Source: a virus
Lineage: Duplodnaviria > Heunggongvirae > Uroviricota > Caudoviricetes
IMG/VR virus record: IMGVR_UViG_2548876935_000005
DNA: 7,216 nt
Reading direction: 5' to 3' (one strand)
Shown: piece after piece, positions 4,714-5,856 of the stretch
Layout of the letters: every line of letters begins with the position of its first letter
Numbering within the stretch: the first letter of the stretch is position 1
The notes under the pieces: generated by a model
The model's database searches: none
Told to the model about the DNA's origin: nothing
The model's input: the letters and a program-made list of their open reading frames with translations, nothing else
Position numbers and translations under genes: made by a program

Positions 4714-5856
4714 ATGAATAAAACTTTAATTGCAACATTAGTCGGTATAGTAATGTTAACCGGATGTGGGCCAGAAGAGTTAACTCCAGAACAGAAACAG
4801 GAAGTAGCGGCTCTTAAAGCTGAACTGTCGCAAACGGAAGGTGAAATATCAGCAGCTAAGGAAGTTGACCAGCAGTTTTCTGGTGGGTTGATAAAAAATC
4901 TGACAACAGCAAGACTGGAAATATTAGGAACTAATAAAGCGCTTTTGGAACAGCGTATTAATGCTATTGAATCAGGTGCCAAAATTGATGTTGTTGTATC
5001 TGGAGTAAAACCTGATCCTGAGCTTGCGGCTTCAATTAAAACTGAAATTGACAGCTTAGATGCAAAAATCAACGAAGCCAAAGCTGATGCTCGTCAGTAT
5101 AGTGGTGGTCTGATAAAGGTACTAAAATTATCTACTGTTGCCACTGAAGAGCAGACCATGGCAATGTTGCAGCAAAAGTACCTCACAGCCAAGTATGGCC
5201 TCGCTGAAGTTAAGCTGGCATCAGTACAAGATAATGACGCAAAAAACAGTACTGAAACGGAAGTAACAGCCAAAAATTCCCAAGGGCAACTTCCTTTACT
5301 CCCGCCAGCGGATGGTCCGTTTGGCTTAGAAGCCGGTCTTACACAGAAAAACATCGAAGATATGATCGGTGCTAAGCTCAAGCCACTACCAGACAGTGTG
5401 AATCTGTATACTTCTGATAAATTACCGAAGCAAAACGCAGATTTTGAAATGTATGGTTTGTTGATCTCCCCGAAAGCTGGTTTATGTCAAATACGGGCTT
5501 TAGGAAAAAATATTGATACTGATAGCTATGGATTGGCTCTTAAATCCAAGTTTGAAGAATTGAGTAATTCTTTAAGTTCTCTGTATGGAAAGGCTGATAC
5601 TACAGACTTTTTGCTGGCTGGTTCAATTTGGAAAGATCCTCAGGACTGGATGAGGGGGCTAAACAAAAAAGAACGCTTCTTATCTGCCACATGGAAGGGA
5701 ACAAAAGAAATACCATTAAAAAACAATATCGATACTATCTCTATTGAGGCCAGAGCGAACAATTCCACTCAGGGATATGTCTATCTGCAGTACTCATTTA
5801 CAAATGACGAAATTTGTCAGGAAGAAATTGAAGGGGCGAAAAAAAGTTCCCTTTAA
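4714..5856 (+). CDS. lipoprotein with internal tandem duplication, unknown function (380 aa)
   Basis: Signal peptide MNKTLIATLVGIVMLTGC with lipobox LTGC; the Cys codon is 4765-4767. Two diverged repeats of about 75 aa share a SGGLIK core (4879-4896 and 5101-5118). The C-terminal 200 aa or so match no family I recognise. GC is visibly lower than in flanking genes. Confidence 0.8.
   Translation: MNKTLIATLVGIVMLTGCGPEELTPEQKQEVAALKAELSQTEGEISAAKEVDQQFSGGLIKNLTTARLEILGTNKALLEQRINAIESGAKIDVVVSGVKPDPELAASIKTEIDSLDAKINEAKADARQYSGGLIKVLKLSTVATEEQTMAMLQQKYLTAKYGLAEVKLASVQDNDAKNSTETEVTAKNSQGQLPLLPPADGPFGLEAGLTQKNIEDMIGAKLKPLPDSVNLYTSDKLPKQNADFEMYGLLISPKAGLCQIRALGKNIDTDSYGLALKSKFEELSNSLSSLYGKADTTDFLLAGSIWKDPQDWMRGLNKKERFLSATWKGTKEIPLKNNIDTISIEARANNSTQGYVYLQYSFTNDEICQEEIEGAKKSSL

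What the first reader, a model, noticed from the sequence alone, without database searches (positions are those of the whole stretch)
4786..5226. Internal tandem duplication of about 75 aa in the lipoprotein with conserved SGGLIK core
Residues 25-97 and 100-171 align position for position (A.K.E[LI] ... [AE]AK..D.[QR][FY]SGGLIK.L ... L[EQ]Q[RK] ... G ... V), and the DNA has diverged (compare 4870-4896 with 5092-5118), so the duplication is old and selected. Repeated helical modules tethered to a membrane by a lipid anchor suggest a periplasmic binding or spacer region ahead of the unique C-terminal domain.
Basis: seen in the sequence. Interest (0 to 1): 0.4.

Follow-up and report, generated by a model that had tools for sequence, protein, structure and literature searches.

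The report
Duplicated helical hairpin in prophage lipoprotein
The 74-residue internal repeat is real: it is an ancient duplication that built a fixed pair of helical hairpins next to the membrane anchor of an uncharacterised periplasmic lipoprotein, which prophages and satellite-like islands often carry beside their tail tape-measure gene.

Summary
In the 380-aa lipoprotein (window 4714-5856, +), residues 24-97 and 98-171 are homologous units with a 74-aa period. The single-sequence score is 76 against 29.7±5.3 for shuffles. The profile-profile E-value is 6.7e-15 over 68 columns, and still 6.6e-9 with the SGGL core deleted.

AlphaFold2 (pLDDT 90.5) predicts each unit as a helix / YSGGL turn / helix hairpin.

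The duplication is single and old. Unit 1s resemble each other at 43% identity across proteins and unit 2s at 45%, but units 1 and 2 only at 23%. DNA identity between the units is 42-48%. Copy number is always two (271 of 292 proteins; the other 21 are fragments).

The two-hairpin block is an independent module with no Pfam or NCBIfam model. It always sits directly after a lipidated Cys or a transmembrane helix. It is joined by a disordered linker to interchangeable periplasmic domains, so the C-terminal domain here is not unique. It is therefore a folded, membrane-proximal scaffold, not an extendable spacer.

Function is unknown. The gene looks like an AT-rich moron. In 27 of 35 diverse viral contigs it lies near a tape-measure gene, which suggests, without proof, superinfection exclusion at DNA injection.

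Overall this is a new domain family of an ordinary structural kind, of moderate interest.

The parts
4714..5856 (+). Lipoprotein gene (380 aa plus stop); identical to WP_001723127.1, annotated 'hypothetical protein'
   Evidence: ORF list. 100% identical copies occur in E. coli chromosomes, in 112 of 5426 complete genomes. There is no Pfam, NCBIfam, PHROG or PADLOC match.
4714..4767 (+). Lipoprotein signal peptide with lipobox LTGC; Cys18 codon at 4765-4767; +2 residue is Gly
   Evidence: Read from the sequence. In homologues the Cys or a TM helix lies 2-6 residues before the module. Outer-membrane sorting is inferred from the absence of Asp at +2 (Lol rule, established knowledge).
4783..5004 (+). 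Repeat unit 1 (residues 24-97): helix A 25-54, tip FSGG 55-58, helix B 58-87, short conserved segment GAKIDVVVSG
   Evidence: Unit HMM; AF2 model mfe5943dffdf8, pLDDT 87-96; hhalign against unit 2.
5005..5226 (+). Repeat unit 2 (residues 98-171): helix A 102-127, tip YSGG 129-132, helix B 132-161, short segment GLAEVKLAS
   Evidence: Same evidence as unit 1; offset is exactly 74 residues.
4870..4896 (+). Core of unit 1, QQFSGGLIK (hairpin tip)
   Evidence: This is the most conserved part of the unit.
5092..5118 (+). Core of unit 2, RQYSGGLIK (hairpin tip)
   Evidence: 19 of 27 bases are identical to 4870-4896, and the Ser codon is AGT here against TCT there.
5209..5313 (+). Variable linker, predicted disordered (residues 166-200)
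   Evidence: pLDDT 46-50; poorly conserved in the alignment; pN 0.25-0.5 between orthologues.
5314..5853 (+). C-terminal alpha/beta domain (residues 201-380), starting with the GPFGL motif, with invariant Cys258 and Cys368
   Evidence: pLDDT 97-98. It stands alone as secreted proteins of about 200 aa in 79 of 150 representatives. No significant PDB fold match was found; the weak matches are PsbP/DUF1795-like.
5868..5900 (+). Intrinsic-terminator-like hairpin (10-bp stem, 5 G-C pairs) with a T-rich tail, 12 nt after the stop codon

Best explanation
SHOWN
- One ancestral unit of about 74 residues (helix, conserved Y-S-G-G-L turn, helix, short extended segment) was duplicated in tandem once, long before the family diversified.
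- The two copies have since been kept as a fixed pair. Together they form an independent N-terminal module of about 150 residues.
- This module always lies within a few residues of the membrane anchor. Here the anchor is a lipidated Cys; in some relatives it is a transmembrane helix.
- Each copy is predicted to fold as an antiparallel coiled-coil hairpin.
- The module is joined by a disordered linker of about 35 residues to interchangeable periplasmic domains. Here that domain is a widespread alpha/beta domain with two invariant cysteines.

INFERRED FROM GEOMETRY AND CONSERVATION
- Each hairpin is about 4-4.5 nm long. The conserved tips therefore point away from the membrane, and the chain returns to the membrane-proximal end after each hairpin.
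- The pair is a rigid scaffold, or a partner-binding or oligomerising platform. It is not a length-adjustable spacer.
- The protein hangs from the inner face of the outer membrane into the periplasm.

INFERRED FROM GENOMIC CONTEXT ONLY
- In Enterobacterales the gene behaves as a moron of prophages and satellite-like islands and recurs beside tape-measure genes.
- The most likely role is protection of the lysogen by interfering, in the periplasm, with DNA injection by incoming phages (superinfection exclusion).
For: Repeat homology and age.

Hairpin fold:
- AF2 model with pLDDT 90.5 and helices at 25-54, 58-87, 102-127 and 132-161.
- The best PDB sequence hit is a designed single-chain antiparallel coiled coil (E 4e-5).

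Fixed copy number and period: 271 of 292 proteins have two units, none has three or more, and the 21 single-unit cases are fragments. The period is 74 aa in 254 of 271.

Module independence:
- Among the best 150 representatives, 33 have N+C, 38 have N with another C-terminus and 79 have C alone.
- Partner domains include VasI and PG_binding_1.
- In Gilliamella the C-domain and the N-module are separate adjacent genes.

Anchor adjacency.

Linker: low pLDDT and high pN.

Moron features:
- The gene has 40% GC against 58% just upstream, and is 5-16 points below the neighbouring TMP gene in 8 other loci.
- A terminator follows the gene.

Mobile-element context:
- The gene lies downstream of a primase in integrase/AlpA islands.
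- It lies beside the TMP gene in lambda-like tail modules.
- 27 of 35 non-identical IMG/VR loci have a TMP gene within about 2 kb.

Precedents:
- HK97 gp15 occupies the same slot and excludes phages at injection (PMC3594210).
- Ltp is a lipid-anchored repeat protein that targets the TMP (PMC3952083).
Against: No functional evidence exists for this family.
- PADLOC and PHROGs have no model for it.
- The gene is absent from 50,697 isolated phage genomes.
- The element in this window carries no TMP gene.
- Some homologues are chromosomal with no mobile context, for example in Pantoea. The family extends to non-enterobacterial phyla, so a general envelope role is equally compatible.
- Morons cluster at a few permissive sites, so adjacency to the TMP gene could be positional rather than functional.
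- No sigma-70-like promoter was found upstream of the gene.
Confidence: 0.6

Rival explanations
1. Housekeeping envelope scaffold. The two-hairpin module tethers and presents periplasmic domains for a host envelope function, such as peptidoglycan- or outer-membrane-associated maintenance or stress buffering. Carriage on phages and islands would then be incidental cargo with no anti-phage role.
For: - Chromosomal, non-mobile context in Pantoea.
- Wide phyletic spread, including Thermodesulfobacteriota, Dadabacteria and Comamonas.
- Fusions to PG_binding_1 and VasI-like domains.
- Forms anchored in the inner membrane that carry a cytoplasmic domain.
- Stand-alone secreted C-domain proteins in rhizobia and other bacteria.
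Against: - There is a strong and repeated association with prophage tail modules and satellite-like islands, with moron-like composition.
- Many copies are frameshifted, as expected for dispensable accessory genes.
Confidence: 0.3
2. One reading: the repeats form an extendable helical spacer or ruler that sets the distance between the membrane and the C-terminal domain.
For: The modules are helical, tandem and next to a lipid anchor.
Against: - Hairpins fold back, so they add no end-to-end length.
- Copy number never varies (271 of 292 with two units, none with three or more) and the period is fixed.
- The two units have diverged into distinct, separately conserved types.
- The variable, disordered linker at 166-200 is the element with spacer properties.
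Confidence: 0.07
3. The similarity is convergence or low complexity: two unrelated amphipathic coiled-coil segments that happen to share an SGGLIK motif.
For: With the core masked, the single-sequence score is only marginally above shuffles (p about 0.03). The module is rich in A, E, L and K.
Against: - Profile-profile E is 6.6e-9 without the core.
- Both helices match separately, while the helix A against helix B cross-controls do not.
- The hydrophobic register is identical, including a shared polar break in the heptad pattern at unit position 18.
- The N-cap ([TD]-P-E) and the terminal G-x-x-[IV]-x-V segment are equivalent in both units.
Confidence: 0.03

Closest known systems
Ltp of Streptococcus thermophilus phage TP-J34 (superinfection-exclusion lipoprotein)
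   Same: It is encoded by a prophage and anchored by a lipid, and its functional part is a tandem pair of sequence-related helical domains. It acts outside the cytoplasmic membrane and targets the tape-measure protein of incoming phages (PMC3952083).
   Different: - Ltp is from a Gram-positive host.
- In Ltp the spacer lies between the anchor and the repeats; here the repeats follow the anchor directly and the spacer comes after them.
- The Ltp repeat domains contain helices and at least one beta-turn (PMC3952083) and are, from memory, helix-turn-helix-like three-helix domains rather than two-helix hairpins.
- No Ltp chain was among the PDB sequence hits.
- Ltp has no additional C-terminal globular domain.
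HK97 gp15 moron (YebO-like superinfection-exclusion protein)
   Same: It is a moron in the tail operon next to the tape-measure gene. It has its own composition and transcription signals, is located in the envelope, and blocks genome injection (PMC3594210). Many homologues of the lipoprotein sit in the same slot.
   Different: gp15 is a small inner-membrane protein, not a lipoprotein. It has no repeats and is not homologous.
CpxP/Spy/ZraP (LTXXQ) periplasmic helical-hairpin proteins
   Different: - The Pfam LTXXQ score is 13-16 bits against a cut-off of 24.3, and only 1 of 21 family members scores at all.
- Those proteins are soluble, not lipid-anchored.
- The structural match is the generic hairpin match shared with SMC, prefoldin and CHMP4B.
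Alpha-hairpin domains of periplasmic adaptor (membrane-fusion) proteins such as AcrA and MacA
   Different: Here there are no lipoyl, beta-barrel or membrane-proximal domains, no HlyD-family Pfam hit and no efflux-pump neighbours. There are two tandem hairpins rather than one inserted hairpin.

Membership tests
Bacterial lipoproteins (Lgt/LspA substrates) | N-terminal signal peptide ending in a lipobox [LVI][ASTVI][GAS]C | tested here: met
   The sequence is MNKTLIATLVGIVMLTGC, with K3, a hydrophobic core and L-T-G-C18. A Cys at the equivalent position is present in nearly all homologues.
Bacterial lipoproteins (Lgt/LspA substrates) | Actual lipidation and sorting to the outer membrane | not testable with these tools
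   The +2 residue is Gly, not Asp, which predicts Lol-dependent sorting to the outer membrane. This is inference only.
Internal tandem domain duplication | The two segments are homologous beyond chance and beyond compositional bias | tested here: met
   hhalign E 6.7e-15; 6.6e-9 without the core; cross-controls 0.13-0.18. Shuffle test 0 of 2000.
Internal tandem domain duplication | Copy number among homologues (a variable array or a fixed pair) | tested here: met
   It is a fixed pair. 271 of 292 proteins have two units, none has three or more, and the 21 single-unit cases are truncated or frameshifted.
LTXXQ family (PF07813; CpxP/Spy/ZraP) | Score at or above the Pfam gathering threshold (24.3 bits) | tested here: not met
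   13.3-15.6 bits, and only 1 of 21 N-modules matches at all.
Lpp/OprI alanine-zipper lipoproteins (NF040598) | Score at or above the NCBIfam cut-off (43 bits) | tested here: not met
   13 bits, and the match covers only the signal-peptide region.
Moron (independent accessory transcription unit in a prophage or satellite) | Base composition unlike the flanking genes | tested here: met
   The gene has 40% GC against 58% upstream. It is 5-16 points below the adjacent TMP gene in 8 other loci.
Moron (independent accessory transcription unit in a prophage or satellite) | Own terminator and own promoter | tested here: inconclusive
   A strong terminator-like hairpin lies at 5868-5890. No consensus sigma-70 promoter lies upstream, so the gene may be read through from, or activated by, the upstream PerC gene.
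Superinfection-exclusion proteins that target the tape measure (Ltp, HK97 gp15 type) | Envelope-located product encoded by a prophage or satellite, next to or acting on the TMP | tested here: inconclusive
   A TMP gene lies nearby in 27 of 35 diverse viral loci and 7 of 26 genome loci. The element in this window has no TMP gene.
Superinfection-exclusion proteins that target the tape measure (Ltp, HK97 gp15 type) | Blocks infection after adsorption; escape mutations map to the TMP | not testable with these tools
   This needs plating and injection assays.
Known anti-phage defence systems (PADLOC-DB) | Match to any PADLOC model | tested here: not met
   No match for the lipoprotein or its two downstream ORFs.

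The most novel reading that the evidence does not exclude
The two-hairpin module together with the GPFGL domain would define a widespread, so far unrecognised family of Gram-negative superinfection-exclusion lipoproteins. These would be carried as morons next to tape-measure genes in lambdoid prophages and in primase-bearing satellite-like islands. Their conserved YSGGL hairpin tips, or the tethered C-domain, would intercept the tape-measure/ejection conduit of incoming siphophages in the periplasm. This would be a functional counterpart of Ltp built on an unrelated fold.
Probability: 0.2. Interest if true: 0.65.

Novelty: new member of a known kind. Interest (0 to 1): 0.33.

Why it matters
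The repeat marks a cleanly delimited, strongly conserved domain of about 150 residues. Its partner C-terminal domain is also well defined. Neither has a Pfam or NCBIfam model, although the family matches 2852 clusters at 50% identity.

Defining the two domains would improve the annotation of many 'hypothetical' lipoproteins in Enterobacterales prophages and islands.

The recurrent position beside tape-measure genes gives a concrete, cheap hypothesis to test, namely exclusion at the DNA-injection step. Few Gram-negative examples of that mechanism are understood.

As a piece of protein evolution it is an ordinary case: an ancient tandem duplication fixed as a pair.

Tried and rejected
- **Family libraries.** Pfam, NCBIfam, PHROGs and PADLOC scans of the protein, of its separate modules and of other architectures gave no family. 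Only sub-threshold coiled-coil noise appeared, plus VasI and PG_binding_1 in fusion partners.
- **PDB by sequence.** Only designed antiparallel coiled coils matched.
- **PDB by fold.**
  - Foldseek on both models gave nothing with E below 0.006.
- **A conserved partner gene.** The downstream 107-aa membrane protein (5921-6244) is not conserved next to homologues.
- **Spanin-like role.** Rejected: there is no lysis-cassette context and no C-terminal TM segment.
- **Membrane-fusion-protein role.** Rejected: no other MFP domains and no pump neighbours.
- **Single-unit relatives.**
  - The apparent cases L032-L034 contain a divergent second hairpin.
  - The 'N-only' proteins from Klebsiella and Pseudomonas are frameshifted full-length genes.
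- **DNA-level repeats.** None found.
- **Other searches.**
  - A first scan of genome contigs with a 21-sequence alignment failed because it had no sufficiently conserved stretch.
  - Rfam found nothing in the window.
  - Isolated phage genomes contain no homologue.

Full report
**What is there**

The finding lies in the ORF 4714..5856 (+). It encodes a 380-aa protein that begins MNKTLIATLVGIVMLTGC, a typical lipoprotein signal with the lipobox LTGC.

The same gene, 100% identical, is annotated 'hypothetical protein' (WP_001723127.1) in 112 of 5426 complete E. coli genomes. It is also present in Escherichia ruysiae.

It sits in an island with this gene order: integrase, AlpA-like HTH, antirepressor, Icd-like, DUF4222, D5-type primase, ProQ/FinO, PerC, lipoprotein.

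**Is the repeat real?**

Yes.

- Local self-alignment pairs residues 31-81 with 105-155 (offset 74). The score is 76 against 29.7±5.3 for 2000 shuffles, none of which reach it.
- Most of the single-sequence signal comes from the F/YSGGLIK core. With the core masked the score is only marginal (p about 0.03).
- Profiles remove the doubt.
  - Unit 1 against unit 2 from 20 orthologues gives hhalign E 1.1e-10.
  - With 73 proteins from clusters at 50% identity or less, E is 6.7e-15 over 68 of 74 columns.
  - With the nine core columns deleted it is 6.6e-9. Helix A alone gives 7e-6 and helix B alone 1.5e-4.
  - The cross-comparisons of helix A with helix B give 0.13-0.18. Generic coiled-coil composition therefore does not explain the match.
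- The pattern of hydrophobic positions coincides at 58 of 74 positions in register, against 36-48 in any shifted register. A polar break in the heptad pattern at unit position 18 is shared by both units.
- Both units start with a [T/D]-P-E helix cap and end with G-x-x-[IV]-x-V.

**Age and selection**

- The two units are 42-48% identical at DNA level.
- TRF and the direct-repeat finder see nothing.
- In the nine-codon core, 19 of 27 bases agree. The conserved Ser is TCT in one copy and AGT in the other.
- Across 73 proteins, unit 1s are on average 43% identical to each other and unit 2s 45%. Units 1 and 2 are only 23% identical, and 24% within the same protein. For 145 of 146 units the nearest neighbour is a unit of the same type.
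- This means one duplication before the family radiated, with no later homogenisation.
- Between the E. coli gene and its two closest orthologues compared (L010 and L012, about 88-89% protein identity), pN in the units is 0.02-0.09. Synonymous sites are near saturation (pS 0.67-0.79). The linker has pN about 0.25, rising to about 0.5 in more distant orthologues.

**Structure**

A first AlphaFold2 run on 20 close orthologues was poor (pLDDT 61). A second run on 88 diverse sequences gave pLDDT 90.5. Its features are:

- helices at 25-54 and 58-87;
- a 14-residue connector;
- helices at 102-127 and 132-161;
- a low-confidence linker at about 166-200;
- a very confident alpha/beta domain at 201-380 (pLDDT 97-98).

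Each unit is therefore a helix / tight turn (F/Y-S-G-G) / helix hairpin.

- The best PDB sequence match is a designed single-chain antiparallel coiled coil.
- Helix A of each unit has a narrow a/d hydrophobic stripe. Helix B has a broad one. This fits the two B helices packing against each other, but the mutual arrangement of the hairpins is not resolved. pTM is 0.55, and four-helix-bundle templates align over at most 85 residues.
- No PDB structure matches the C-terminal domain significantly. The weak best matches are PsbP/Mog1/DUF1795-like proteins: CyanoP (TM 0.44), SciW, MTC28 and TiME.

**Family and architecture**

- A profile search of 1.84 billion cluster representatives finds 2852 proteins.
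- Among the best 150, 33 have both modules. 38 have the two-hairpin module with a different C-terminus or none. 79 have only the C-terminal domain, mostly as secreted proteins of about 200 aa without a lipobox.
- Other partners of the N-module include a VasI-like domain, PG_binding_1 on a Paracoccus plasmid next to BREX, and several unannotated domains.
- Seven long forms (504-588 aa) replace the lipobox with a cytoplasmic domain resembling the L7/L12 C-terminal domain, followed by a TM helix. They keep the two units.
- In every case the Cys or the TM helix lies only a few residues before unit 1.
- Of 292 proteins with any unit, 271 have exactly two and none has three or more. The 21 with one unit are N- or C-terminally truncated or frameshifted fragments. 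The period is 74 aa in 254 of 271.
- Apparent single-unit lipoproteins from Vicinamibacterales and Burkholderiales contain a divergent second hairpin.
- In Gilliamella apicola a C-domain gene and an N-module lipoprotein gene are separate and adjacent, in the reverse order. This points to a functional partnership between the modules.
- Neither module has a Pfam, NCBIfam, PHROG or PADLOC model. The weak LTXXQ hit is below threshold and is seen in 1 of 21 members.

'Old and selected', 'helical' and 'lipid-anchored periplasmic' hold.

'Spacer' does not.
- Hairpins return the chain to where it started.
- The number of units never varies.
- The two units have become distinct and are separately conserved.
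- The segment with spacer properties (variable, disordered, fast-evolving) is residues 166-200.

The C-terminal domain is not unique to this protein.

**Genomic context and likely role**

No neighbouring gene is conserved with the family.

The gene is AT-rich relative to its surroundings. It has 40% GC against 58% for the ProQ/PerC genes just upstream. It is 5-16 points below the adjacent genes in eight other loci. A strong terminator-like hairpin follows it at 5868-5890. These are the marks of a moron, although no consensus promoter was found.

- In E. coli and Enterobacter the gene follows the primase of integrase/AlpA islands.
- In Pseudocitrobacter, Pantoea, Proteus, Erwinia and Xenorhabdus it lies next to the tape-measure gene of lambda-like tail modules (TMP, M, L, K, I, J; confirmed with PHROGs).
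- In IMG/VR, 52 viral contigs carry it. 17 are copies of the E. coli island (98-100% protein identity).
- Of the other 35, 27 have a TMP gene within about 2 kb. 17 of these are tail modules, often with the lipoprotein gene 11-145 nt from the TMP gene. The other 10 are islands bearing a DUF927 primase and a TMP-like gene.
- This is the slot of the HK97 gene 15 moron, whose product blocks genome injection (PMC3594210).
- Ltp of phage TP-J34 is a lipid-anchored repeat protein that excludes phages by binding their TMP (PMC3952083).

By analogy, the most likely role is superinfection exclusion in the periplasm. This step is inference only. Several facts weigh against it.
- The window's own element has no TMP gene.
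- Pantoea copies are chromosomal.
- The family extends far beyond Enterobacterales.
- Isolated phages lack it.
- Moron insertion sites are few in any case.

**Verdict**

The feature is an ancient tandem duplication that created a fixed two-hairpin, membrane-proximal module of an unannotated and widespread lipoprotein family.

It is a new domain family of a familiar structural kind, not a new kind of system. Interest is moderate. It would rise if the link to the tape-measure protein proves functional.

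Noticed in passing
L019, L020, L056-L066, L070, L089 (islands bearing a DUF927 primase): Integrative islands that look like phage satellites (integrase, AlpA, DUF927 primase) carry a gene of 700-1200 aa matching tail tape-measure PHROGs, 1.6-2 kb downstream of the lipoprotein gene. A tape-measure-like gene in a satellite-like island is unexpected and was not explained.
   Followed up: partly
L090 5387-5989 and 6001-6570 (Gilliamella apicola): The C-terminal-domain homologue and the two-hairpin lipoprotein are separate genes 12 nt apart, in the reverse order to the fused protein. This is a split arrangement that suggests the two modules work together.
   Followed up: partly
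L028, L029, L080, L086, L089, L093, L036: Many copies of the lipoprotein gene are split by frameshifts or stops (Lonsdalea, Proteus mirabilis ATCC 29906, Klebsiella, Pseudomonas helleri, Agrobacterium). In L028 and L029 the break falls within unit 2. This is consistent with a dispensable accessory gene.
   Followed up: partly
P0144, P0145, P0147, P0150, P0151, P0152, P0155: Long homologues (504-588 aa) replace the lipobox with a cytoplasmic domain of about 80 aa and one TM helix, so the same periplasmic part hangs from the inner membrane. In the one member scanned that gave any hit, the domain weakly resembles the ribosomal L7/L12 C-terminal domain (PF00542, E 0.005, below threshold).
   Followed up: partly
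L035 2998-4296 (Paracoccus sediminicola plasmid p2): A 432-aa protein combines the two-hairpin module with a PG_binding_1 domain. It lies directly beside a BREX locus (WYL, DUF1819, DUF1788, BrxC).
   Followed up: partly
window 5921-6244 (+): A 107-aa ORF, hydrophobic enough to look like a membrane protein, lies 65 nt downstream of the lipoprotein gene. It has no Pfam, PHROG or PADLOC match and is not found next to homologues in other genera.
   Followed up: partly
window 1578-3383 (+): The D5_N/DUF5906/Pox_D5 primase-helicase ORF is intact here (601 aa), but it is annotated as frameshifted in E. coli F9792.
   Followed up: no
window 3384-3752: The intergenic region between the primase and the ProQ/FinO gene is very AT-rich (about 31% GC). 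It is followed by a sharp rise to 60% GC across the ProQ and PerC genes.
   Followed up: no
window 7155-7216: The last 60 bases or so match the ends of IS66-family elements in many E. coli chromosomes and plasmids. The island appears to be interrupted or bordered by an IS66 copy here.
   Followed up: no
window 4292-4579 (+): A PerC-family transcriptional activator gene (PF06069, E 1e-31) overlaps the stop of the ProQ gene and ends 134 nt before the lipoprotein gene. No sigma-70 consensus promoter was found in that gap, so PerC-dependent or read-through expression is possible.
   Followed up: no
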